Part shown: positions 29,321-40,858 of the stretch, one piece after another | How positions within the stretch are numbered: the first letter of the stretch is position 1 | Layout: each line of letters opens with the position of its first letter | Assembly: GCA_964579765.1 (NCBI GenBank) | Contig: CAZOIK010000267.1 | Span: 1-61,958, forward strand | Length of the DNA stretch: 61,958 bases | Direction: 5' to 3' | DNA from: an uncultured Bifidobacteriaceae bacterium | Lineage (GTDB): Bacteria; Acidobacteriota; Vicinamibacteria; Vicinamibacterales; CAVVIG01 | Notes under the pieces: generated by a model | Database searches by the model: none | The model's input: only the letters and a program-made list of their open reading frames with translations | Told to the model about the DNA's origin: nothing | Made by a program: the position numbers and the translations under genes

Positions 29321-32155
29321 ATGACCGTGTCGTTCCCACCTGCTCGCAGTCTTATGCGCGAACCCGTGTTCGGCGAATCGGCTGCCGGCGGCGGCCCGAC
29401 TGGCGATCGAGAGGCAAGCGCTCGTCGCCAGCGGGTGCGTGAGATGGCTCCTGACGATCCGCTGGACGTTCTGCTCGTCGATGACGGCTTGACCGCAGTC
29501 CTGCTCACCGAGGCGGCCCTGGCGCAGCAGGGCCGGTTCCGGTTGCGGCGTAGCAAGAGACTTGGCGAGGCGCTGGAGCTGCTCTCGAAGGCGCATTTTG
29601 ACGTGGTGCTTCTCGCCCTGGGTTTGCCGGACAGCCAGGGACTACGCACTCTGCAAACACTGCGGCACAAGAATCCGAAAGTTGCTGTCGTCGTGCTCAC
29701 CGAGAAGGACGACGAGGAGTTGTCGCTGCGGGCGCTTCAGGAAGGAGCGAACGACTATCTGGTGAAAGGGCCGGCAGCCACCGAGCAACTGAACCGGGCG
29801 ATCCGCTACGCCGTCGAGCGCGCCAAGAGCGACGAGGCGCTTCGGCAGAGCGAGGAAGTGTTCCGCGGAGCCTTCGAGAACACCAAGGTATCAATGGCCC
29901 TCGCGGGGCTGGACAATCGGTTCCTCCGCGTGAACGAGGCCTTTTCGCTTATGTTCGGCCATTCCAAGGAGGAAATGCTGCGGTTGTCCGTCGCCGACAT
30001 CACGTACCCCGATGACCTGGCCGAGAGCTACGCCTACAGGGAGCGGCTGCTTACCGGAGAGGGCCAGTTCTTCCAGATGGAAAAGCGGTTTCTCCACAGT
30101 GAAGGCCATGTCGTTTGGGGCTTGACGAACATTTCCCTGGTGCGGGGAACGTCCGACGAGCCGATCTACTACGTCGTGCAAGTGCAGGATGTGACGCAGC
30201 GGAAACTGGCCGAGGAGTCCCTGCGGAAGCGAGAGGAGCAAATCCGACTTCTGCTGGACTCGACGGCCGAGGCGATTTATGGAATCGACATGCACGGCAA
30301 CTGCACGCTTTCCAACCGGGCCTGCGCCCAGTTGCTCGGGTACGAGAGCGCTGACGACCTGCTCGGCAAGCACATGCACAACCTCATGCATCATACGAAG
30401 CCGGACGGCACGCCGAACCCCGAAGAGGGATGCCGCATCTATCAAGCGTTCCGGCGGGGAGAAGGGACGCATGTGGACGACGAACTCTTTTGGCGATCGG
30501 ACGGGACCAGCTTCCCCGCCGAATATTTCTCGTACCCGATCAAGCAGGGGGACAACCTCATCGGTTCGGTGGTGACGTTCCTGGACATCAGTGAGCGAAA
30601 GCACGCGGAAGAGAGTGCGCGCACGTTGGCTGCGGAGCGCAACCATCTCCTGGGACAACTCCGTTTGCAGATTGAACGGATGCCCCTTGTCTATCTCCTC
30701 TTCGACGCCGACTTTCGGATCACTGACTGGAATCCGGCGGCGCAACGGACCTTTGGATACACCAGAGAGGAGGCCCGCGGTAAGCAGCCCAACGAGCTGA
30801 TTCCGCCGTCGTTCCATCAGGATGCGGCGAGGATCCTCGAGCGCATTCGGGCGGGGGACATGGCGGCCCACTCCGTCAATGAGAACCTGACGAAAGACGG
30901 TCGAACGATCACCTGCGAGTGGTTCAACACGCCACTCTTGGCGGATGACGGGCGATTTGGCGGGTTGCTTTGCCTCGGGAGGGATGTCACAGACCAAAAG
31001 ACATTGCAGGCGCAGTTTCAGCAGGCGCAGAAGATGGAGGCGATCGGCCAACTGGCGGGTGGCGTGGCCCATGACTTCAACAACCTGCTCACGATCATTT
31101 CCGGCTACAGTGAGATGCTGCTCGCCACGCTGGGGGCGAGCGACCCGATGCGGGAGTCTGTCAAGGAAATCAGCGAAGCCGGTCATCGAGCCGCCTCGCT
31201 CACCCGCCAATTGCTCGCCTTCAGCCGGAAGACGGTCCTGGAGCCGAAGGTTCTTGACCTGAACGAGACCGTCCGTGAAACCGAGAAGTTTCTGCGGCGG
31301 CTGATCGGCGAGGACGTGTTGCTCACTGGCGTGCTCGATCCGAACATCAGTCGAGTGAAGGTCGACCCTGGCCAGTTGGGACAGGTGTTGATGAATCTGG
31401 CCGTCAACGCCCGTGACGCCATGCCCAGGGGCGGGACGCTTACGGTGGAAACCCGTAACGTCGAACTGGATCACGAATACTCACGCCTTCGCCCCGAACT
31501 CAAGCCGGGCCGCTACGTCCTGCTGTCGATCACCGACACCGGTAGCGGCATGACCGCGGACGTGAAGGCCAAGATTTTTGAGCCGTTCTTCACGACGAAG
31601 GGGGTCGGCAAGGGGACCGGGCTGGGGCTCGCGGTCGTCCTCGGCATCGTCAGGCAAAGCGGAGGGCACGTCGAAGTCGACAGCGAGCCTGAAGTTGGCA
31701 CCACGTTCAAAATCTACTTCCCAGCCGTGGAAGAACAGGTTTCCCCAACCAGAGGACTTGACGGCGGCAGGGATCCGCGGGGCACCGAGACGGTCCTGCT
31801 GGTCGAGGACGAGAACGGCGTGCGTGGACTGGCGGCGCTCGTGCTGCAAAGCTACGGCTACAAGGTGTTGACGGCGGGCAACGGCGTGGAAGCCGTCGAG
31901 GCCGTCGAGAAGCACCGGGGCGGGATCGACCTGGTGGTGACCGACGTCGTGATGCCCGGCATGGGCGGGCCGGACTTAGCGGAAGGCGTGCAGTCCCGTT
32001 TCCCCCAGGTGCGAGTGCTGTTCACAAGCGGGTACACGGACGACGCCGTAGTGCGGCACGGCCTCCTGTCCGAGAAGGTTGCCTTCCTTCAGAAGCCGTA
32101 CTCGCCCCTTGCGCTCGTCAGGAAAGTGCGGCACGTGTTGGACGAGCGTCGATAG
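29321..32155 (+). CDS. hybrid sensor histidine kinase/response regulator (REC-PAS-PAS-PAS-HisKA-HATPase_c-REC)
   Basis: DVLLVDDGLTAV... receiver, three PAS-like blocks, H-box GGVAHDFNNLLTII, N/G boxes NLAVNARDAM and GTGLGLAVV, and the C-terminal receiver TVLLVEDENGVRGL...VVTDVVMPGMGG. The start is uncertain: given the promoter at 29293, ATG 29354 or 29444 may be the real start. Confidence 0.9.
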   Translation: MTVSFPPARSLMREPVFGESAAGGGPTGDREASARRQRVREMAPDDPLDVLLVDDGLTAVLLTEAALAQQGRFRLRRSKRLGEALELLSKAHFDVVLLALGLPDSQGLRTLQTLRHKNPKVAVVVLTEKDDEELSLRALQEGANDYLVKGPAATEQLNRAIRYAVERAKSDEALRQSEEVFRGAFENTKVSMALAGLDNRFLRVNEAFSLMFGHSKEEMLRLSVADITYPDDLAESYAYRERLLTGEGQFFQMEKRFLHSEGHVVWGLTNISLVRGTSDEPIYYVVQVQDVTQRKLAEESLRKREEQIRLLLDSTAEAIYGIDMHGNCTLSNRACAQLLGYESADDLLGKHMHNLMHHTKPDGTPNPEEGCRIYQAFRRGEGTHVDDELFWRSDGTSFPAEYFSYPIKQGDNLIGSVVTFLDISERKHAEESARTLAAERNHLLGQLRLQIERMPLVYLLFDADFRITDWNPAAQRTFGYTREEARGKQPNELIPPSFHQDAARILERIRAGDMAAHSVNENLTKDGRTITCEWFNTPLLADDGRFGGLLCLGRDVTDQKTLQAQFQQAQKMEAIGQLAGGVAHDFNNLLTIISGYSEMLLATLGASDPMRESVKEISEAGHRAASLTRQLLAFSRKTVLEPKVLDLNETVRETEKFLRRLIGEDVLLTGVLDPNISRVKVDPGQLGQVLMNLAVNARDAMPRGGTLTVETRNVELDHEYSRLRPELKPGRYVLLSITDTGSGMTADVKAKIFEPFFTTKGVGKGTGLGLAVVLGIVRQSGGHVEVDSEPEVGTTFKIYFPAVEEQVSPTRGLDGGRDPRGTETVLLVEDENGVRGLAALVLQSYGYKVLTAGNGVEAVEAVEKHRGGIDLVVTDVVMPGMGGPDLAEGVQSRFPQVRVLFTSGYTDDAVVRHGLLSEKVAFLQKPYSPLALVRKVRHVLDERR

Positions 32156-32654
32156 TTGGAGAAGGCGCGCGTTTTGGGGGTGGTTTGCCCGCGAAGAATT
32201 GGGTCGGAGCCGTCAGTGACTGTAGCGTGGTTGGAGAACGACAATTCCTACACCTGACTATCGAACGATCATTTGGGCATCGAGTGAAATGTCGCTGCTC
32301 GAAGCGCAGAATGTGGCGGGGTTACACGCACTTCCGACACTCAGCTCGTGGTTGCCGCGCGATTATCGATCACTCGAGTTGTGACAGCTTCGGCCCTTCG
32401 TCGCGTGTGAGCTCAACGTTAGTATCGGGTCAGATTGGAAATGGACTGTGCAGGTTACTACTCGAAAACGCCGATACGTTTAGGAATCGTACGCACCGCG
32501 ATTCTCGGTGGGACCAGTCCCCCAGTCCGTTTTTGCGCGTTTTTCAGCGCATGTCACCTCGCGCCAGCCCATTCGAAAACCCGTGTGAATGTTGATAGTT
32601 TTCGCGCTCTGGCTGTTTCACGCGCGTTCACGACCATCCACCCTACACCGCGAT

Positions 32655-32676
32655 TGTGTTACCACTGTGTTACCAC
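32655..32676. repeat. perfect tandem duplication of the 11-mer TGTGTTACCAC
   Basis: Read directly: tgtgttaccac tgtgttaccac. Confidence 0.85.
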
Positions 32677-32687
32677 AGAACAGCCGG

Positions 32688-32752
32688 TCAAAGGGTCGGA
32701 TCGGCGCACCTGAGTGTCATTCAGAGGGTCGTGAGGCACAGTCAGAGGGTCG
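32688..32752. repeat. three direct iteron-like repeats TCARAGGGTCG
   Basis: Copies at 32688 (tcaaagggtcgg), 32721 (tcagagggtcgt) and 32742 (tcagagggtcgg), spaced 33 and 21 bp. Confidence 0.75.
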
Positions 32753-32878
32753 GGACATCGCCGCGGTGGGCGCCGGCGAAACGGACCGCGAGATCGGCGG
32801 ACGCCGCGGACCTTCATCAGTTCCTCGATCTTATTTTTGAGGATGATCGGCTCAATGTTTATGCGGGTAAACTCGAAG

Positions 32879-32929
32879 TGCGCCCACCAGCTGCGCCCAC
32901 CACTATGGGCCGATCTAGGAGATCGGGCC
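32879..32929. repeat. direct repeat TGCGCCCACCA x2 followed by the palindrome GGCCGATCT-AGG-AGATCGGGCC
   Basis: Read directly: repeats at 32879-32889 and 32892-32902, palindrome at 32908-32929. Confidence 0.65.
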
Positions 32930-33110
32930 AACGTGGAAGGCCCTTGGCGGCGTCTGGGTCGTGGCCCGCAATACGCTGGGGCGCCGGCACCCTTAGGTCC
33001 TGTTGGCGAGCAGCCCGAGTCGTGCGAGGAAGGCGAGACGATCTCCAGTGGCGAGCGGTAGACTGGCGGGCATCTACCGCCACCGTGAACCCTGAGTCTT
33101 CGAAGGACCT

Positions 33111-35708
33111 ATGGCGACAGCCAGTGCAGGAGAAGTCTATCGGGACATTCTGGAGTGGGGAGCCACGCTTCCTCTGTGGCAGCAAGAGCTTCTGCGTCGC
33201 GTCCTCCCCGAACGTGACCTAACCGTTGCCCAAATCGAAGAACTCGCGGCGGCTGCCGTGTCGGAAAGCGAGCAGCAGCCGTCTGCGTACGCGCCTCTTT
33301 CCCTTGCGGATCTCCCCGCTACGGCTTCAGTTCTTGACGCACGAGTACTCCTCGGCATAAGCAAGGTCCGGAGCGTCAACGCGCTGCGCTCTGATCAGCA
33401 CCTGACATTTGGACCGCAGCTGACGATCGTCTACGGCGACAACGGTTCCGGTAAATCGGGATACGCCCGGGTGCTGAAGAAGGTGTATCGCGCTCGAGTG
33501 GTTGACGACATCCTGGGCAATCTCGGCTCCGAGCAGCCTTCGCTTGACCCGTGCGCGGCGACATTCAGTACTAAAGGTGCTGATGGCGCCGCGGTTCTCG
33601 CCGAATGGCTGGACGGCAAGCCGCTCGAGAACGTCGGGCGCTTTGCTGTACTCGACACGGCCTGTGCGGGCACGTACCTCCGCGGAGGCGCCCTCGCGGT
33701 TGGTCCGTCCGGAATCGACGTCCCTCGGCGGTTCACCGAGGAACTTGACCGCGTCAAGAACCACATCGTGCGCCTGATGGCAGCGTCCGCTCCGAACAAG
33801 ACAGCACTCCAGCGTTTCGAGAATGACACTGAGGCCGGCCGGTTCGTCAAGGGCCTCTCGTCTGCCACAGCCGACGCAACCGTTGCGGCCTTCGAGACCT
33901 GGACCGAGGACGACGCGCAAAAGCTGCGTGAGTCCGAGCGTGCTATCGCCGAGGGGAAGGCGCAGGCGCCATCCGCGCGGCGTGCACAGATGAGGGCTCG
34001 GCTCAGGGCATTGGAGTCAATTCATTCGCGCTTAACCATGTGGCGCGACGCGGTCAACGACACCGCCATCGCCGCGGACCTTACAGCCGTGAAGGCTCTC
34101 GACGAAGCCGATGCAGTTCTGCGGGCGGTCCAGACGGTCGAAGATAAAGCGGTGCGAGGTGAGTTCGTGCAAGGAGCGCCATGGCTTCAGCTCCTCGCTG
34201 CCGCCGCCCAGTTCGTTAGCGCCCTGCCCGCGCACACGCAGGTAATGGCGCCGCTGTCGCTAGATGGCCGCTGCGTTTTGTGCTGGCAACCGCTCGACGA
34301 CGCAGCGCAGAAGCGCATGCAACGCTTTCAAGGGCACCTCGAAGGAACGGCCGTTAAGGCGCAGATGAGCGCGGCGGCGACAGTAACGGCGGCGATCTCA
34401 CGTGTCAACGGCATCCCCGATGCCCTGACGCCGGAGGATGAAGCTGTCCTAAACACAGCCCCTGGTGTCCTGTCGACCGTAAACGAGTCGCTGGCCGCCA
34501 TTCGTGGACGCCGGGACGCGGCTCGGACTCTCCTCAATACGCGAACGCCGCCCGTGAGCCTTCCCGCCCTAGACGACGCCGCGCTCGAATCGCTCCGGCA
34601 CGCGACCGACGCCGTGAAGACCGACCTCGCGGCGTTGCCAGCGACCGACGCTGATGCGCAGGGTCAACTGCAGGCGCTTGAGCGGATAGTGCTCGAACTG
34701 ACGACCCGGCGGTCGGTGGCTGAGTCGATCGCTTCCGTGCGCACCTTCATCGCGATGACACGGGAGCGTCAGCGGCTTGCCCAGGCGGAGCGTGCCATAA
34801 ACACGCGGGCCGCCTCCGTGAAGGCGTCGGACCTGCACAAGAAGCACATGACCACGCGCTACGCGGAACTCGTCAACGACGAACTCCGTGATCTGCGGTT
34901 CAGGCGCCGTCGGCCCATCCTCGCACAGGCAACTAACAAGGGCACCGTGCAGGTGACTCCTCTGGTCAGCGCCGAACTCTCACACATTCCGGCGGAAAAG
35001 GTATTCAGTGAGGGCGAGCGCACAGCGATTGCACTCGCCTGCTTCTTGGCGGAGCTGAGCGTCGGTGATGATCCGTCGGGACTCATTTTCGATGACCCGG
35101 TTTCTTCCCTGGACCATAACGTTCGCGAGCACCTCGCTCGCAGGCTGGTCGCGGCGGCGAAGACTCGCCAAGTGATCGTCTTCACTCACGACCTGGCCTT
35201 CCTGGCGGACCTGCGCGAGCAGGCCAAGAAAATCCAAGTCGTTGAATGCGCATTCCGTACGCTGACTGCGACCGACTACGATGCCGGGTTCGTTGAGGAC
35301 GAAGAGCCGTTCGGCGCTCGCGCCGGCGCAAAGCGTATAAAAGCGCGCCGGCCGCTGCTGGCCGAGATCGAGCGCGCCGCGAAGGCAGGCGAAATGGTCG
35401 CGTTCCGGCTCAACAGTAAGGATTTCTACGAACGGCTGCGCAGCACCTGGGAACGCTTCATCGAGGAGCGTCTCTTCGCTACCGTCGTCCAGCGCCTCGA
35501 GCGGAACGTCACCGCTGGCGCGCTGTCGAAGGTGGCTTATACCCCAGAGCTCGGCGAAAAGGTTCACGAGGGTTGGCGGCGCTGCTCAAACGCCCTCGAA
35601 GCCCACGACCACGCACCGGGGGCGGGCGGGCAAAGCTATTCGGTCGAGGATATGAAGGCGGATTTCCAGTGGCTCCTCGATGTCGAAGCGGCAACCCCCA
35701 AGACCTGA
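33111..35708 (+). CDS. RloC-like AAA_13-family ATPase (Rad50/SMC-like head, long coiled coil with CxxC hook, candidate anticodon-nuclease C-terminal domain)
   Basis: SD AAGGA plus ATG at 33111. Walker A YGDNGSGKSG (aa 108-117). About 500 aa of Ala/Leu/Arg/Glu-rich helical insert with GRCVLCWQPL (C388/C391) near its midpoint. Signature-like FSEGERTAI, Walker B/D-loop GLIFDDPVSSLD, H-loop VIVFTHD. The C-terminal ~160 aa carry RSTWERFIEERL ... WRRCSNALEAHDH. Confidence 0.75.
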   Translation: MATASAGEVYRDILEWGATLPLWQQELLRRVLPERDLTVAQIEELAAAAVSESEQQPSAYAPLSLADLPATASVLDARVLLGISKVRSVNALRSDQHLTFGPQLTIVYGDNGSGKSGYARVLKKVYRARVVDDILGNLGSEQPSLDPCAATFSTKGADGAAVLAEWLDGKPLENVGRFAVLDTACAGTYLRGGALAVGPSGIDVPRRFTEELDRVKNHIVRLMAASAPNKTALQRFENDTEAGRFVKGLSSATADATVAAFETWTEDDAQKLRESERAIAEGKAQAPSARRAQMRARLRALESIHSRLTMWRDAVNDTAIAADLTAVKALDEADAVLRAVQTVEDKAVRGEFVQGAPWLQLLAAAAQFVSALPAHTQVMAPLSLDGRCVLCWQPLDDAAQKRMQRFQGHLEGTAVKAQMSAAATVTAAISRVNGIPDALTPEDEAVLNTAPGVLSTVNESLAAIRGRRDAARTLLNTRTPPVSLPALDDAALESLRHATDAVKTDLAALPATDADAQGQLQALERIVLELTTRRSVAESIASVRTFIAMTRERQRLAQAERAINTRAASVKASDLHKKHMTTRYAELVNDELRDLRFRRRRPILAQATNKGTVQVTPLVSAELSHIPAEKVFSEGERTAIALACFLAELSVGDDPSGLIFDDPVSSLDHNVREHLARRLVAAAKTRQVIVFTHDLAFLADLREQAKKIQVVECAFRTLTATDYDAGFVEDEEPFGARAGAKRIKARRPLLAEIERAAKAGEMVAFRLNSKDFYERLRSTWERFIEERLFATVVQRLERNVTAGALSKVAYTPELGEKVHEGWRRCSNALEAHDHAPGAGGQSYSVEDMKADFQWLLDVEAATPKT

Positions 35709-35747
35709 CGCGGGCAAGCGCTTGCTTCCACAGAAACGGAGTTGCTG

Positions 35748-36200
35748 ATGCCCGTTGAGATTCCGACCTTCGACGCCCCCGAAAAGTACGAGCAGTACGC
35801 GCTGAACGTGGAGGCTCGAGCGCCAGAGAAGGCGCAAGAGGCTCGGCGACTGGCAGTCAAACTCCGTGCGACACGAGACGGTGCGAAGAGCGATGTCGAA
35901 CGCGAATGCCTTGAGGCCATCTACGCATACGAGTGGACGCTGTTCAAGAAGCACGGCAAGCGGCAACGGGCGTCATACACATGGCGAATGGTGGATGAGC
36001 GCGGGATCATTCCCGCTGTTGAGCACGCCGTAACGCGACCGAAGGAGACGGCGGGTTACCGTGGTCTGGAGGCCGAGGGAATGCTCGACATGGCCTTCGA
36101 GGCGGTCGTGCTGAGGCACAAAGACGTGTTCAGCGCCGCGGCCGTGAAGAAGTCGCAGGAGCGGCTCGCCGAGTGGCGCTCCAGCGGCGGCGGGGGTTGA
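35748..36200 (+). CDS. hypothetical 150-aa protein co-oriented with the RloC-like gene
   Basis: GGAG 6 nt upstream of ATG 35748. MPVEIPTFDAPEKYEQYAL...RASYTWRMVDERGIIPAVEHAVTRPKETAGYRGLEAEGMLDMAFEAVVLRH. I recognise no family. Confidence 0.6.
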   Translation: MPVEIPTFDAPEKYEQYALNVEARAPEKAQEARRLAVKLRATRDGAKSDVERECLEAIYAYEWTLFKKHGKRQRASYTWRMVDERGIIPAVEHAVTRPKETAGYRGLEAEGMLDMAFEAVVLRHKDVFSAAAVKKSQERLAEWRSSGGGG

Positions 36201-36212
36201 GATTGTCGCGTG

Positions 36213-36734
36213 TCACGTGAGGGTGAACGCTGAGCGGATCGGGTCCCACTCGGCGGTTACAACTGGTATTGGTCGCTCCCTTCTGCTCGCCATCTCTCTG
36301 ACGCGTTGTGCGTTCTCTTTCGTCATGTCCTCGCCCAGGATCACGCGCGTCAACAAGTCTGGGCCTACGTCAAAGGCAGGACCGCCCTGCCGCCGCGCAA
36401 GGACCAAGCGGAGTTCTTCCTCGTTGCTCCACTCTGGATATTTGTAGAAAAACCACGACGAAGATGTCGCGTTCGAGAGGTCGGTGAGATCATAGGCCGG
36501 TGGTCGTTCGTAAACGACGTCACGAACGTCTACGAACAATCCTGTCCTGGCGAATTCGAGGCAATAGCCCGTCTGCCGTGCGGCGTACCACTCCCACATT
36601 GACAGATTGTCCCAGCGTTTAGACAGGCAGTAGATATGGTGATTCTGTGTCTTCTCGTGCCAGCCTATCGTCGCCATCTCGTAAATCTTCGGCGCGCCGA
36701 TATCAGCAACTATTTCGTCCAAGTCGAACGACAT
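36213..36734 (-). CDS. DUF2971-like protein (short, lacks the usual N-terminal region)
   Basis: Last 173 aa of track ORF 36213..37187. IYCLSKRWDNLSMWEWYAARQTGYCLEF ... FFYKYPEWSNEEELRLV matches my memory of the DUF2971 core. Its ATG overlaps the upstream TGA (TGATG). Confidence 0.65.
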   Translation of the reverse strand: MSFDLDEIVADIGAPKIYEMATIGWHEKTQNHHIYCLSKRWDNLSMWEWYAARQTGYCLEFARTGLFVDVRDVVYERPPAYDLTDLSNATSSSWFFYKYPEWSNEEELRLVLARRQGGPAFDVGPDLLTRVILGEDMTKENAQRVREMASRRERPIPVVTAEWDPIRSAFTLT

Positions 36735-38725
36735 CACAACGCTCCGGCCGCGACCTGGTCGAAGTACGACACCTGCGGCCCGAGGTAGTACGGTTTGAGA
36801 TAGCACCGCGTCGGCGGCAGCGGATTGAAGCCATCGTACGGCAGGACAATCGCCTGCGCGTTCTGCAGTTCGGTGAACGCCTTCGGCTGGAACACGTAGT
36901 CGAGCGACAGGCTGTACGTCTTGGCAGCACTGACGGTGGTCCGGTGCGCCGCCGGGCGGCCGGTCAGCATGCTCACGCGCGCATCCTGCCCCGCCTCGGT
37001 CAGGGCATAGCTCGGTTTGAGACGCTCCGCCTTCCCGCACAGCTCCGCGGCGATGTGCGCGCTGAAGTCGTCGGAGAGGGCCAGGAAGATCTTCGTCCGG
37101 AGTCCTTGGAGGAGCGTCCGCCACGCCTCGCCTGGCAGCGTTGACCGCAACGAGCTGAGGCTCTGGGTCGCGACGATCGGAATGCATCGCGCCTGCCGCG
37201 CCAGCGAGAAGAACTTCTCATCCCCAGAGGGCTCGTTCTCGCCCGTCGTCGCGAACGCCTGATACTCGTCGCAGACAAAGAAGACCGGGCGCCGGCTGGC
37301 CTCGCTCTGATCGAGCTTTTGGATCCGATTGAGCACCGCGCGCTGAAAGTCCTGCTTCAGCATCGTACCCAGCGCGCGGGCCAGGCCGGGATTCATGGCG
37401 ATCGGAAAATTGAGCGCGATGACCTTGCCCTGTTCGATCAGGTCGGCGATCGGCGGCAGCGACACGCCGTGCCGGCCGTCGTGATTCGCCGTGGCGTCGT
37501 ACGTGTCTTTCGGGGGGCAGAACGTGTGCTTCACGCGTGGGTTGTCGTCGAACAGCGAGAGAAACACGCTGATGCCCTCGACGATGGACGTGCGGAGCTT
37601 CGGCTCCATGCGCATCCAGTCGTCCTCGAACCAGCGCTTCACGGCCTCGAACTGGGCGGTCTTCTCGCGGTCGCGGGCATCAAGGTGCCCGCCCTCCACA
37701 TGGTACGGAATGGTGGCCTCTCTGAGGGACTCCTCGACGTCCCGATCCCAGTGCGTCCACGTGTGCAGCGTATCGTTCGTGACGTGCCAGTCCCAGGCCT
37801 TCAGTACATCGCTGAGCAGGTGCTCCCGTTTGTCCACGACAATGCGCCGGTTGTGCGCGGTGAAGCGCCGCTCCCCGTCCGCGATCTTCGCGCGCAGCTT
37901 GTCCGGGTTGATGACGTGCTCGTACACTTGGAACAAGGTGACGTAGTCGTCGAGCACCTGGTGCAGCAGGATCACGAACGTGACAAGATTCGTGCTCGCC
38001 TGCTGCCAGAACGGTTCCTTGCCGCGGCCAAAGAGATTCGTCATCAACATGGCAATGCCGTACGCCAGGGCGTAGGCATCGAGGTCATTGTGCAGCGGGT
38101 TGTACCGGTACGGGGAGGTAAGGCTAACCTCGATGTAGTCGTCGCCGCGGCCGTACCGCTCGAGCAGCTGCCGGACGTGCGCGCAGAAGTCGCCTTTCAC
38201 TTCGAGCACCAGGCCACCGATCTTCCGCGCAGGCTCGCTCGCGCGATAGCCCACCAGCTGCTCGACATAGGGATACATGCACGCCGAGGTCTTGCCCGTG
38301 CCGATGGCGCCCACGATGATCGTGCCCGTGTAGAGCCCGCGCTCAGGGATCGCCAGCCACCGCGGCTCCGCCGCGGGCAGCGGCGAGATCTGACGGTGCT
38401 GTTCGCCGAGGATCACAAAGAGCGCGTCTCGATCCTGGGGCCGCGGATACGGCGGGAGCGCCGCCTTGGGCACGCGACGATCCGTGCGGGCCACGAAGAT
38501 GTACACGAACGCGCTCACCATCGTGAGTAGCAAGAACGGCGTGCTGAACCACAGGGTCGCGTAGGCGTACACGAACCCGGCGTACACCGTCGGCTGGCTC
38601 GCGTGGATCAACCCGAGGAGCGGCTGCTCGGTGGGGAACGGCCACGCCTGCAGCCCGGCGACGCCAATGACCTCGGCCAGCGCGAGGCTGATGACGAACC
38701 GGTACTCGATCAGGACGCGTGCCAT
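36734..38725 (-). CDS. membrane-anchored type IV coupling protein-like ATPase (TraG/TraD/VirD4 family, FtsK/HerA superfamily)
   Basis: 663 aa. N-terminal TM helices (VISLALAEVIGVAGL, YAGFVYAYATLWFSTPFLLLTMVSAFVYIFV), Walker A IIVGAIGTGKTSACMYPY, Walker B-like RRPVFFVCDEYQAF, and IPIVATQSLSSL. Confidence 0.8.
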   Translation of the reverse strand: MARVLIEYRFVISLALAEVIGVAGLQAWPFPTEQPLLGLIHASQPTVYAGFVYAYATLWFSTPFLLLTMVSAFVYIFVARTDRRVPKAALPPYPRPQDRDALFVILGEQHRQISPLPAAEPRWLAIPERGLYTGTIIVGAIGTGKTSACMYPYVEQLVGYRASEPARKIGGLVLEVKGDFCAHVRQLLERYGRGDDYIEVSLTSPYRYNPLHNDLDAYALAYGIAMLMTNLFGRGKEPFWQQASTNLVTFVILLHQVLDDYVTLFQVYEHVINPDKLRAKIADGERRFTAHNRRIVVDKREHLLSDVLKAWDWHVTNDTLHTWTHWDRDVEESLREATIPYHVEGGHLDARDREKTAQFEAVKRWFEDDWMRMEPKLRTSIVEGISVFLSLFDDNPRVKHTFCPPKDTYDATANHDGRHGVSLPPIADLIEQGKVIALNFPIAMNPGLARALGTMLKQDFQRAVLNRIQKLDQSEASRRPVFFVCDEYQAFATTGENEPSGDEKFFSLARQARCIPIVATQSLSSLRSTLPGEAWRTLLQGLRTKIFLALSDDFSAHIAAELCGKAERLKPSYALTEAGQDARVSMLTGRPAAHRTTVSAAKTYSLSLDYVFQPKAFTELQNAQAIVLPYDGFNPLPPTRCYLKPYYLGPQVSYFDQVAAGAL

Positions 38726-38732
38726 GGGCGCA

Positions 38733-39002
38733 CTACCGCCGGCTCTCGCTCGAGACCGCAGCCGTGGAGGTGGCGTCGCGCCGAGGCGACTTCAGCGCGG
38801 GTTCGTCCGGATGCTCGGCGCGCCACGCGAGGAACTCGCGATCCTTCGCGATCGTGGAGTCGATCAGTTGATTGAGGACGTAATCCGGCGTGTCGCCGAT
38901 GAAGCGCGCATAGAGCATGAGCGCATCACGATCGGGCTCCTGCAGACGAGAAATGTGGCGCACCGATTTGACGCGGTTCGTGCGCGGTTTGATCAGCGGC
39001 AT
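38733..39002 (-). CDS. small 89-aa protein, DUF2274-like (conjugative-element accessory protein pattern)
   Basis: Only the last 89 aa of track ORF 38733..39935. MPLIKPRTNRVKSVRHISRLQEPDRDALMLYARFIGDTPDYVLNQLIDSTIAKDREFLAWR. It ends 7 nt upstream of the T4CP-like start. Confidence 0.5.
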   Translation of the reverse strand: MPLIKPRTNRVKSVRHISRLQEPDRDALMLYARFIGDTPDYVLNQLIDSTIAKDREFLAWRAEHPDEPALKSPRRDATSTAAVSSESRR

Positions 39003-39051
39003 GGGTTCTCTCCTGTCGTCATCTGTGTCTCCTTCGTGCTGTGCAGCCGGG

Positions 39052-39100
39052 CGAGGGGGAAGCCACTCCCACGATGGGGGTGGGGGTCGCTCCCCCCTCG
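39052..39100. promoter_or_regulatory. extended GC-rich stem-loop in the leader/promoter region of the small-protein/T4CP-like operon
   Basis: CGAGGGGGA ag CCACTCCC acgat GGGGGTGG gggtcgc TCCCCCCTCG: nested inverted repeats (outer 9 bp, inner 8 bp with one G-U). Confidence 0.5.
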
Positions 39101-39142
39101 CTTCTGACCCGGCTGCGGGACGAGTGTGACGCTGGCCCCGGC

Positions 39143-39803
39143 TCATGCTACCCCGGGCAACGAGCCGAATTGCTCGTAGGCGAACGGCAACGTCTCCAAC
39201 AGGAGCGTGCTGGTCGAGTCGCCCGTGGGCGACGCGGGGGTCGCCGCGCCGATGCGACCGGTCCGGCACCACTCCGTGTACAGCGCCTGGTGCGCCGGCG
39301 AGTCGAAGCGCTGCCGCAGTTCGCGGTAGCGGCGCAGGTCGACCGGAGACCTGCCCGAGGTCGCCTCGGTCGACGTGCTGCGTCGCTCGAAGTACCACTG
39401 GAGGTCGCGTGCCCTGCTCGGAGCGTCGACGCCACGGACGCGAGGAACCGGTCAAGCACCGCCGGGCCACCGCCGGCGCGACGCTGACGGCGACGATCGT
39501 CCACGTCGGCACGCACCGGAGCAGCGTCGCGTGATCGTGCAGAAACGCCGTGAAGGGATCGGGACTGCCCGTCGGTCGCCAGGTAGACGAAATGCGGCGT
39601 CGGCCGATCCAGCGGCAGAAAGATCGGGAGCTTGTGGACGAAGTGGCGGGCGGTGCTGTCACCGCCATCGGCGGACGCGAACGTCCGCGTCGGCAGCACG
39701 TGCGGCGACACGCTGCACTGCGCGACGAAGAGTTGGACCTTGTCGTGCTCGGTGGCGACCCTGCTTGGCAGCCTACCGTGAGGAGAGCCGACGGCTCGAC
39801 GCG
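39143..39803 (-). pseudogene. multiply frameshifted relic of an unidentified gene
   Basis: Protein-like segments sit in three different minus frames. They are ...HDKVQLFVAQCSVSPHVLPTRTFASADGGDSTARHFVHKLPIFLPLDRPTPHFVYLATDGQ, then PDPFTAFLHDHATLLRCVPTWTIVAVSVAPAV, then VLDRFLASVASTLRAGHA, then LQWYFERR...DLRRYRELRQRFDSPAHQALYTEWCRTGRIG...LLLETLPFAYEQFGSLPGVA*. Confidence 0.5.
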
Positions 39804-39804
39804 A

Positions 39805-40758
39805 TCAACGCACGTAGTGGCCCGAGCGGTAGATTTCGTCGTAGACGAGCGAGACGTTCTCCTGCGCCTTCGAGAGCACGATCGCGTAGCCCGGATACTT
39901 CGCCGTGAGCATCTTCGTGATCTCAGCCGCCACATCGTCCGCCTTCCTGCGCGCTCGAAGGCCTTCCTGCGCGGCCATCACGAAATCGTGGTTCATGCGG
40001 ACGAACTCCTCCAGGTCGGCCCAGGACATCAGCGAGGTGCTATGGCCGGTGATCACCGTGTCGACGCCTTTGATGGTCGCGACGGCCTGCTCCAGCGTAT
40101 GCAAATGTCCGAGAATCGTGCCGCCGTCCGTCGTCATGATGTTCGGGAGCGTCTTGCGCGCGAAGAGATCGGCAAAGTGCGCCGTCCTCGCGGCGGGAAA
40201 CACGACAATCGCGTCACCGCTCGTGTGCGCCGGCCCGAAGTTGTAGAGCTCGACGCGATCCTTGCCGTCGCCGAGCCGCATGCGATCGGTGAAGGTCGTC
40301 TTCGGCAGATAGCGCGTCTTTTCGCCAGACAGGAAGCCGCAGTTGGCGATCGGCTCGCAGACGTCCTTCGACAGGTTCGCGCGCGTGTTCTCCTGCACGA
40401 TGAACCGGACGCCGGCGGAGAATTCCTGATTGCTGCCGGTGTGATCGCGGTGCGTGTGCGTGTTGATGATCGTCGTGACCGGTTTGTCGGTCACAGTTCC
40501 GATCAGTCGCTGGATCTCCGCCCCCCACCCAGGATTCTTCGTGTCGACGAGTACGACGCCATCGCCCGTCACGAAGACGGCAAGATTGCTCGCGCCTGCG
40601 GCGCCGGTCCCCTCGGTGATCCAGTACAGGTTGTCACGCACGCGCTCGATCCGCGCGATCTTTGGCCGTTCCGCGCCTCCGCGTCCCTGCCCGGCCGGAC
40701 GGACGGACAGCACGCCGGCGACGGCGATCACCGCACCCACCACGACTCGTTTGTTCAT
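39805..40758 (-). CDS. exported metallo-beta-lactamase-fold hydrolase
   Basis: Internal Met MNKRVVVGAVIAVAGVLSV with GGAGGC upstream. INTHTHRDHTGSN motif. Confidence 0.8.
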   Translation of the reverse strand: MNKRVVVGAVIAVAGVLSVRPAGQGRGGAERPKIARIERVRDNLYWITEGTGAAGASNLAVFVTGDGVVLVDTKNPGWGAEIQRLIGTVTDKPVTTIINTHTHRDHTGSNQEFSAGVRFIVQENTRANLSKDVCEPIANCGFLSGEKTRYLPKTTFTDRMRLGDGKDRVELYNFGPAHTSGDAIVVFPAARTAHFADLFARKTLPNIMTTDGGTILGHLHTLEQAVATIKGVDTVITGHSTSLMSWADLEEFVRMNHDFVMAAQEGLRARRKADDVAAEITKMLTAKYPGYAIVLSKAQENVSLVYDEIYRSGHYVR

Positions 40759-40838
40759 GCGTGCCTCCGCATTGTCCGGAGCCACCGATTCTAAGACAGA
40801 CGTTCGCAATCTGGGCTGCGGCGATCGTAATCGTCGAA

Positions 40839-40858
40839 GAATACTCAAAATTGGGTAT
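40839..40858. promoter_or_regulatory. AT-rich 7-2-7 inverted repeat GAATACTCAA-AA-TTGGGTAT (site A)
   Basis: Half-sites TACTCAA / TACCCAA. The centre is 32.5 nt upstream of a GATAAT -10 box (40882-40887) for the PQQ dehydrogenase gene. Confidence 0.55.

What the first reader, a model, noticed from the sequence alone, without database searches (positions are those of the whole stretch)
32156..39803. 7.6-kb accessory segment wedged between a hybrid kinase gene and an MBL gene: mobile-element/defence-island relic with no integrase
The 32156-39803 interval changes character compared with its flanks. It holds a 955-bp non-coding, visibly more A+T-rich, repeat-dense stretch, the RloC-like pair, the convergent T4CP-like operon, a strong stem-loop, and a gene relic broken into three frames that abuts the stop codon of the MBL gene at 39805. 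Conjugation-type proteins (T4CP-like, DUF2274-like) plus defence-type proteins (AAA_13, DUF2971) plus decay signatures fit a degraded integrative element carrying defence cargo. I could not find flanking direct repeats or a recombinase.
Basis: partly seen in the sequence, partly recalled or inferred. Interest (0 to 1): 0.6.

Follow-up and report, generated by a model that had tools for sequence, protein, structure and literature searches.

The report
Decayed conjugative element with defence cargo
This 7.6-kb stretch of a soil Vicinamibacterales genome is the broken leftover of a conjugative DNA-transfer element, cut down by at least two deletions and still carrying candidate anti-phage genes; this is an ordinary kind of genomic scar, here mapped to the base.

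Summary

**What is there**
- Window 36.7-39.8 kb is a fragment from the middle of a VirB/Trb-type type IV secretion operon. Twelve related loci share the order ...VirB8-98aa-~290aa-~326aa-inverted repeat-89aa-T4CP-VirB11-cargo.
- The window keeps only part of this: the last two thirds of the 326-aa gene, the inverted repeat (decayed), the 89-aa gene and an intact T4CP.
- The 326-aa gene survives as residues 123-335, split over three frames and cut off 48 nt or less from the MBL stop.

**The deletion scar**
- The "DUF2971" ORF is a chimera. virB11 codons 1-4 (MSFD) are fused in frame at 36723|36722 to codon ~81-84 of a ~254-aa DUF2971 cargo gene.

**Cargo and spacer**
- An intact AAA_13 ATPase matches PADLOC candidate PDC-S06 over its full length.
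- A 150-aa ORF has no family match.
- The 955-bp, 58.7% GC spacer holds one copy of an 83-nt dispersed repeat.

**Limits**
- No integrase, tRNA gene, att repeats or other T4SS genes were found.
- No empty site was found, so the left boundary is unproven. Low-GC composition runs left to about 15 kb.

This is an ordinary finding: a new member of a known kind.

The parts
32156..33110 (.). 955-bp non-coding spacer, 58.7% GC, between the kinase stop and the AAA_13 start. Similarity to the closest kinase homologue ends at 32148.
32822..32904 (+). One copy of an 83-nt dispersed repeat of the family, 203 nt upstream of the AAA_13 start. It has sharp ends and unrelated flanks elsewhere.
33111..35708 (+). 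Intact 865-aa AAA_13 / ABC-type ATPase with a CxxC in the predicted coiled-coil region. It is a full-length match to PADLOC candidate PDC-S06.
   Evidence: (E 6.9e-150, residues 11-855)
35748..36200 (+). 150-aa ORF with no family match. It is not conserved next to AAA_13 homologues.
36213..36734 (-). 173-aa chimeric ORF. virB11 codons 1-4 (MSFD) are fused in frame to the C-terminal two thirds of a ~254-aa DUF2971 cargo gene. Its ATG overlaps the T4CP stop by 1 nt.
36722..36723 (-). Internal deletion junction. virB11 homology ends at 36723 and DUF2971 DNA homology begins at 36722.
36734..38725 (-). Intact 663-aa type IV coupling protein (T4CP) homologue with Walker A GAIGTGKTS. It is 85% identical to a homologue inside a complete T4SS cluster.
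38733..39002 (-). 89-aa conserved partner gene that always lies just upstream of the T4CP in this element family. It has no Pfam family.
39051..39101 (-). Decayed copy of the family's conserved 19-bp inverted repeat (core GAGCGACC / GGTCGCTC). The spacer is shrunk to 7 nt and the core has two mismatches. Candidate oriT or operator.
39146..39756 (-). Pseudogene of the ~326-335-aa element gene. Residues 123-335 survive in three frames: 39756-39562, 39557-39474 and 39424-39146. The N-terminal 122 residues are deleted.
39757..39804 (.). Right-hand junction. These 48 nt lie between the relic and the MBL stop (39805-39807) and include a short hairpin, GAGCC-GTC-GGCTC, directly after the MBL stop.

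Best explanation
The segment is the non-functional remnant of a Vicinamibacterales conjugative element of the VirB/Trb (MPF-T-like) kind, joined to cargo genes of the defence-candidate type.

Shown:
- The intact element family has the order TrbC-VirB3-VirB4-VirB9-VirB10-DUF4141-VirB6-VirB8-98aa-~290aa-~326aa-[19-bp inverted repeat]-89aa-T4CP-VirB11-cargo.
- The window retains only the 3' two thirds of the 326-aa gene (frameshifted at least twice), the inverted repeat (decayed), the 89-aa gene and the T4CP.
- A second deletion removed virB11 from codon 5 onward, together with downstream cargo, up to codon ~81-84 of a DUF2971 gene. This left an in-frame virB11'-'DUF2971 chimera.
- No other T4SS gene is detectable in this genome.

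Inferred:
- An element once sat here entire, and one deletion took out the channel genes and presumably the integration module, down to the 3' end of the MBL gene.
- The AAA_13 (PDC-S06) gene, the 150-aa ORF and the spacer belong to the same cargo region.
- The fragment can no longer transfer DNA.
- The only part likely still to work is the intact PDC-S06 ATPase, as a single-gene abortive-infection-type defence. That role is itself untested.
- The decay is recent, because the relic is no more diverged from its homologues than intact copies are from each other.
For: - Twelve loci place the T4CP directly before virB11 and after the 326-aa and 89-aa genes, inside T4SS clusters.
- The relic maps to residues 123-335 in three frames.
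- Junction sequences: intact elements read ...GAL* then ATGAGCTTCGAC(GTC...) = MSFDVILPFLRP. The window reads ATGTCGTTCGAC|TTGGACGAA = MSFD|LDEIVADIG.
- DUF2971 homologues of 252-257 aa are 76-79% identical from residue ~84 onward, and the conserved N-terminal HFYRYGS...FNDLRD block is missing in the window. DNA homology stops at 36722.
- Full-length DUF2971 genes sit beside integrase/IS21/PIN genes, or beside TrwC relaxase/T4CP/VirB11/AlpA genes.
- The AAA_13 homologue in G087 (69% identity) lies about 3 kb from a VirB4-like gene.
- The T4CP is in 7 of 31 relatives.
- VirB6, VirB8, VirB9, VirB10, DUF4141 and the 98-aa and ~290-aa genes are absent from the whole assembly.
- Composition: GC at the 0.7th percentile and tetranucleotide distance at the 99.3rd percentile.
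- The inverted repeat is conserved with 7 of 19 compensatory pairs, and two of the four unpaired cells (the two in the invariant core) and the only G-U pair are attributable to the window's copy.
- Relic identity to homologues is 42-46%, against 45% between intact copies at the same T4CP distance.
Against: - No integrase, att repeats or tRNA target were found on the contig.
- No empty site exists in any available relative. The kinase's closest homologues (87% and 82% nt identity) sit in other contexts, and the same-genus genome lacks the kinase, the MBL gene and this arrangement.
- The left boundary is therefore not demonstrated, and odd composition continues left to about 15 kb.
- The T4CP and the 89-aa gene are intact and show no rate acceleration. 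This fits recent decay but also fits retention by selection.
- The genome is a 495-contig MAG.
Confidence: 0.85

Rival explanations
1. The 89-aa gene, the orphan T4CP and the truncated DUF2971 form a functional, exapted three-gene module. It would be, for example, a membrane ATPase-based defence or DNA-handling system retained by selection after loss of the secretion channel.
For: - The T4CP (1,989 nt) and the 89-aa gene are intact, while the adjacent 610-nt relic has at least 2 frameshifts. If disruptions fell at random over these 2,869 nt, both landing in the relic has probability of about 0.045 (own arithmetic).
- There is no protein-level rate acceleration.
- Pairwise dN/dS is 0.18-0.21.
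- The start-stop overlap with the downstream ORF is preserved.
Against: - The arrangement is unique: all 12 other loci have virB11 after the T4CP.
- The start-stop overlap is simply inherited from virB11.
- The DUF2971 part lacks its conserved N-terminal ~82 residues.
- The relic is no more diverged than intact copies, so the decay is recent and intact neighbours are expected by chance.
- dN/dS of window pairs is slightly higher than for intact pairs, which give 0.14-0.16.
Confidence: 0.08
2. The junctions and frameshifts are artefacts of metagenome assembly or binning, so the contig is chimeric and no real deletion scar exists.
For: The genome is a MAG of 495 contigs with 5.43% estimated contamination. 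Reads could not be inspected.
Against: - The virB11'-'DUF2971 junction is in frame and leaves an open 173-codon ORF.
- Both sides of each junction have the genome's general high-GC style.
- The same order is present in the 75-kb NCBI record of this contig, although that is probably the same assembly.
- Chimeric joins normally occur at shared repeats, and none lies at these junctions.
Confidence: 0.05
3. The locus is ancestral and vertically inherited, not of mobile origin.
For: No integrase or att sites were found. T4CP homologues are numerous in Vicinamibacterales metagenomes, with 5,820 hits.
Against: - The distribution is patchy: 7 of 31 relatives, absent from the same-genus genome, and two copies in one genome.
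- T4CP identity is 81% to another genus, whereas the neighbouring MBL is at most 49% identical.
- Composition is atypical.
- The canonical context is a T4SS cluster with variable cargo.
Confidence: 0.02

Closest known systems
Integrative conjugative elements or conjugative plasmids with a VirB/VirD4-type (MPF-T-like) type IV secretion system, and their decayed remnants in chromosomes
   Same: The relatives carry TrbC/VirB2, VirB3, VirB4, VirB9 (CagX), VirB10 (TrbI), VirB6 (TrbL), VirB8, VirB11 (T2SSE) and a T4CP, followed by variable cargo. The window keeps the T4CP and two adjacent genes as a truncated remnant.
   Different: - The T4CP is distant from curated families: TraG-D_C and TrwB only at about 1e-7, and NCBIfam conju_CD1115 at 32 bits against a cut-off of 250.
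- No recognisable relaxase was seen in the loci read.
- The ~290-aa, ~326-aa and 89-aa genes have no family.
- The window has no channel genes, integrase or att sites.
PADLOC phage defence candidate PDC-S06 (single-gene AAA_13 ATPase). It is one of 145 untested candidates predicted by guilt-by-embedding (bioRxiv 10.1101/2024.01.29.577857).
   Same: Full-length profile match: E 6.9e-150, residues 11-855 against profile positions 5-846 of 858.
   Different: Defence activity has not been tested for this candidate class. Here the gene is not embedded in a known defence system but lies in element cargo.
RloC / PrrC anticodon nucleases (AAA_13-type ABC ATPase with a Rad50-like zinc hook and a C-terminal nuclease)
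   Same: It has an ABC ATPase head split by a long insert, with a CxxC (CVLC, seen in the translation) near the middle.
   Different: The PrrC profile matches only the ATPase signature region, residues 659-709, at E 2.9e-4. No nuclease domain was detected, there is no match among solved structures, and no restriction-modification genes are adjacent.
DUF2971 (PF11185) / PADLOC candidate PDC-S31
   Same: Pfam DUF2971 scores 22.6 bits on the 173-aa ORF. PDC-S31 profiles match at E 8e-19.
   Different: Only the C-terminal two thirds is present, and the first four codons come from virB11.

Membership tests
Integrative conjugative element (T4SS type) | Type IV coupling protein | tested here: met
   663-aa intact ORF with TraG-D_C and TrwB_AAD_bind matches. 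It is 85% identical to a T4CP inside a full T4SS cluster.
Integrative conjugative element (T4SS type) | Mating-pair-formation genes (VirB4 ATPase, VirB6/8/9/10 channel, VirB11) | tested here: not met
   tblastn with VirB6, VirB8, VirB9, VirB10, DUF4141 and VirB11 from relatives finds nothing of this cluster in the window or the whole assembly. There are only weak hits to other T2SSE ATPases. VirB4 itself was not queried.
Integrative conjugative element (T4SS type) | Integrase or recombinase, and flanking att direct repeats | tested here: not met
   PF00589 gives 10 hits in the genome and none on this contig. There is no tRNA gene and there are no flanking repeats beyond chance. Serine and DDE recombinases were not searched genome-wide.
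Integrative conjugative element (T4SS type) | Relaxase and oriT | tested here: inconclusive
   No relaxase family was detected in the element genes scanned. A conserved 19-bp inverted repeat with 7 compensatory pairs lies upstream of the 89-aa gene and could be oriT or an operator. The window's copy is decayed.
Genomic island (horizontally acquired segment) | Atypical composition relative to the genome | tested here: met
   GC is 63.6% against 67.7% (0.7th percentile) and tetranucleotide distance is at the 99.3rd percentile. The anomaly is not confined to the interval.
Genomic island (horizontally acquired segment) | Empty site in a close relative | tested here: inconclusive
   No relative with the kinase next to the MBL gene was found. 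The available relatives are too distant or have other contexts.
PADLOC PDC-S06 | Full-length match to the candidate's profile | tested here: met
   E 6.9e-150 with coverage of residues 11-855 of 865.
PADLOC PDC-S06 | Protection against phage | not testable with these tools
   The source paper lists the PDC systems as untested candidates.
DUF2971 / PDC-S31 | Complete protein, including the conserved N-terminal block | tested here: not met
   The alignment with nine homologues, eight of them 252-268 aa long, shows that the first ~82 residues are missing.
RloC-type anticodon nuclease | C-terminal anticodon-nuclease domain | tested here: inconclusive
   The PrrC profile matches only the ATPase part. 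There is no solved-structure relative. No fold prediction was run.
   There is no Pfam family at E <= 0.1, and no NCBIfam or PHROG match.

The most novel reading that the evidence does not exclude
The orphan T4CP, its 89-aa partner and the virB11'-'DUF2971 fusion are kept by selection as a new channel-independent module. This would be a coupling-protein ATPase recruited for defence or DNA handling, not a recent scar. Separately, the 83-nt dispersed repeat in the spacer may mark an undescribed small mobile or regulatory element of this bacterial family.
Probability: 0.1. Interest if true: 0.55.

Novelty: new member of a known kind. Interest (0 to 1): 0.25.

Why it matters
Remnants of conjugative elements with defence cargo are common, so the biology here is ordinary. 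The value is descriptive.

- It defines, in poorly studied soil Acidobacteriota (Vicinamibacterales), a widespread T4SS element family. The family has a fixed backbone, a conserved inverted repeat (candidate oriT) and a cargo slot after virB11 that collects defence-like genes.
- It shows a base-precise deletion scar that created a chimeric ORF. Automated annotation would call that ORF a DUF2971 protein.
- It warns against reading the T4CP-DUF2971 pair as a new system.

Tried and rejected
**Empty-site search**
- The MBL protein has 28 paralogous matches in the own genome and at most 49% identity in relatives, so it is useless as an anchor.
- An 18-kb DNA query across 101 family genomes found only isolated genes.
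- The same-genus contig with the PQQ orthologue lacks the MBL gene.
- The two closest kinase homologues have other neighbours.

**Reads**

**'Extra decay' of the relic as evidence for long neutral evolution, and so for selection on the T4CP**
- I first thought the relic was more diverged than expected.
- A like-for-like comparison showed that the C-terminal part of this gene is only 45% identical even between intact copies whose T4CPs are 81% identical.
- The argument was dropped.

**AAA_13 plus the 150-aa ORF as a conserved pair**
- Rejected: the 150-aa ORF is absent beside homologues in G087 and the Polyangiaceae MAGs.

**Other negative results**
- Terminator-like sites are not enriched: 5 found against 5.6 expected.
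- Rfam gave no match in the interval or in copies of the 83-nt repeat.
- RNAalifold on the 83-nt repeat found no covariation because the copies are too alike.
- The 83-nt repeat does not look like an integron attC site, because it is not a long imperfect palindrome. This was not pursued.


Full report
**Source and layout**

The window is contig C267 of a 5.04-Mb, 495-contig MAG. An identical T4CP gene lies on NCBI record DASZQU010000583.1 of GCA_035549475.1 with the same gene order. Homologues named by their sources are Vicinamibacterales.

The interval holds:
- a 955-bp gap with no family-matching ORF;
- an 865-aa AAA_13 gene (33111-35708, +);
- a 150-aa ORF (35748-36200, +);
- converging on them, a minus-strand operon of an 89-aa gene (38733-39002), a 663-aa T4CP-like gene (36734-38725) and a 173-aa DUF2971 ORF (36213-36734);
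- a hairpin (39051-39101);
- about 660 bp without one open frame, up to the MBL stop at 39805.

**The T4CP operon is a fragment of a T4SS element**

The T4CP has thousands of homologues of nearly constant length, the closest 85% identical. It occurs in only 7 of 31 related genomes. It is absent from the one same-genus genome and present twice in another.

In every other locus examined it is embedded in one conserved cluster. These loci are:
- eight from genomes G010, G026, G015 (two copies), G008, G027, G047 and G065;
- four metagenomic contigs carrying P0002, P0012, P0008 and P0010.

The cluster order is TrbC, VirB3, VirB4, CagX/VirB9, TrbI/VirB10, DUF4141, TrbL/VirB6, VirB8, a 98-aa membrane protein, a ~270-290-aa protein, a ~326-aa protein, the 89-aa protein, the T4CP, and a VirB11-type ATPase whose start overlaps or lies a few nt after the T4CP stop. 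Variable cargo follows.

That cargo often looks defence-related. Examples are DUF4365 plus a helicase, DUF3800 plus a kinase and a methyltransferase, and Prok-JAB/AAA_15/Prok-E2/ThiF. None of the channel genes is detectable anywhere in the window's genome.

**Right-hand boundary**

The ~326-335-aa protein of relatives aligns to the window only from residue 123 onward, in three minus-strand frames:
- 39756-39562;
- 39557-39474;
- 39424-39146, ending in the family's C-terminal ...LPF.YEQFG.L.GV motif.

The N-terminal 122 codons are gone. Only 48 nt, including a short hairpin directly after the MBL stop, separate the relic from the MBL gene. That gene's alignments to paralogues run to within a few residues of its end.

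**Internal deletion scar**

- The closest DUF2971 homologues (76-79% identical) are 252-257 aa long. The window's ORF aligns to them only from about their residue 84 and lacks a conserved N-terminal block.
- In intact elements the T4CP ends ...GAL* and virB11 begins ATGAGCTTCGACGTC... (MSFDVILPFLRP).
- In the window the T4CP ends in the same way, and the next ORF begins ATGTCGTTCGAC|TTGGACGAAATAGTT... (MSFD|LDEIVADIG).
- DNA similarity to full-length DUF2971 genes stops exactly at 36722.

The ORF is therefore a virB11'-'DUF2971 fusion made by one deletion. Its 'translational coupling' to the T4CP is inherited from virB11. Full-length DUF2971 homologues lie beside an integrase, IS21 and PIN genes, or beside a TrwC relaxase, T4CP, VirB11, AlpA and a toxin-antitoxin pair.

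**The stem-loop**

All six aligned elements carry, between the 326-aa and 89-aa genes, a 19-bp inverted repeat with an invariant core GAGCGACC/GGTCGCTC.
- 96% of cells pair, and 7 of 19 pairs show compensatory changes.
- No shuffle reached the observed covariation score (0 of 500), and slid controls drop to about 50% pairing.
- In the window the ~50-nt spacer between the arms is reduced to 7 nt, and the arm alignment attributes the two unpaired cells in the invariant core and the single G-U pair to the window's copy.
- It still folds strongly: -45.9 kcal/mol, z -3.9.

I read it as a decayed copy of an element site, either oriT or an operator. That function is inferred, not shown.

**Cargo**

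- The AAA_13 protein matches PADLOC candidate PDC-S06 over its whole length at E 6.9e-150. PDC systems are untested candidates.
- Its best family-level homologue (69%, G087) lies about 3 kb from a VirB4-like gene.
- Homologues of 56-58% identity occur in Polyangiaceae MAGs of another phylum.
- The 150-aa ORF is not found beside any of these and matches no library.

**How old is the decay?**

- The T4CP's terminal branch (0.15) is like those of its siblings. Relative-rate tests show no consistent excess.
- Pairwise dN/dS is 0.18-0.21, against 0.14-0.16 for intact pairs.
- The relic is 42-46% identical to its homologues. This is the same as between intact copies at equal T4CP distance, 45%.
- The scars are therefore recent, which is enough to explain why the T4CP and the 89-aa gene are still open. 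Selection on them cannot be excluded. Both frameshifts falling in the relic has probability of about 0.045 under uniform decay. No other evidence points to selection.

**Left side and composition**

- The interval is atypical for the genome, but so is everything from about 15 kb onward. The kinase gene is the most deviant piece.
- The kinase is shared, as a gene-sized block of 87% and 82% nt identity, with two metagenomic contigs that have entirely different neighbours. Similarity ends at 29423 and 32148.
- No empty site exists in the data at hand, so 32156 is a plausible but unproven left edge.

**The spacer**

- Besides the tandem 11-mers, it contains one copy (32822-32904) of an 83-nt repeat.
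- blastn finds the repeat in 53 of 118 family genomes. Near-exact copies occur in 18 genomes of 12 genera, up to 13 per genome, with no hits to the reversed control pattern.
- The copies have sharp ends and unrelated flanks.
- They often form same-orientation arrays spaced 1-8 kb apart.
- They have no Rfam match.
- Its nature is unresolved.

**Verdict**

This is a recently decayed, transfer-dead fragment of a conjugative element with defence-candidate cargo. The separate idea of a new three-gene T4CP module is not supported.

Noticed in passing
window 32822-32904; also L045-L071: An 83-nt dispersed repeat (TCCTCGATCTT...GCGCCCACCAC). It is present in 53 of 118 family genomes by blastn. Near-exact copies occur in 18 genomes of 12 genera, up to 13 per genome, with sharp ends and arrays in one orientation spaced 1-8 kb apart. 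On the opposite strand it reads GGRTWWAHFEFTRINIEPIILxKKIEE, and in a few copies it continues into a ComEA-like helix-hairpin-helix ending. No Rfam match. Nature unknown.
   Followed up: partly
L022, L023, L024, L030, L031 intergenic region upstream of the 89-aa gene; window 39051-39101: A conserved 19-bp inverted repeat with invariant core GAGCGACC/GGTCGCTC and 7 compensatory pairs in a Vicinamibacterales T4SS element family. It is a candidate oriT or operator.
   Followed up: partly
window ~15000-39000: A 24-kb block of low GC (0.61-0.65, at or below the 5th percentile) with odd tetranucleotide content. It is wider than the finding and most extreme over the hybrid kinase gene at 28.5-33 kb.
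   Followed up: partly
window 29423-32148; L032, L033: The hybrid histidine kinase gene occurs at 87% and 82% nt identity in two metagenomic contigs with entirely different neighbours. Similarity ends at the ends of the gene.
   Followed up: partly
P0002 contig, L072, L073, L074 (downstream of virB11): The position directly after virB11 in this element family is a variable cargo slot with defence-like genes: DUF4365 plus a helicase; DUF3800, a protein kinase and a D12 methyltransferase; ankyrin; Prok-JAB/AAA_15/Prok-E2/ThiF.
   Followed up: no
own genome contig C372:29613-32952: An intact paralogue of the ~326-aa element gene (31-38% identity) lies about 2 kb from a tyrosine integrase at the end of another contig. 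This may be a second mobile element.
   Followed up: no
L034, L035 (Polyangiaceae MAGs): AAA_13/PDC-S06 homologues of 56-58% identity occur in another phylum (Myxococcota), which fits horizontal spread of this gene.
   Followed up: no
window 39805-40848 and genome-wide: The MBL-fold gene next to the segment belongs to a large paralogous family: 28 matches in this genome and up to 47 in relatives.
   Followed up: no
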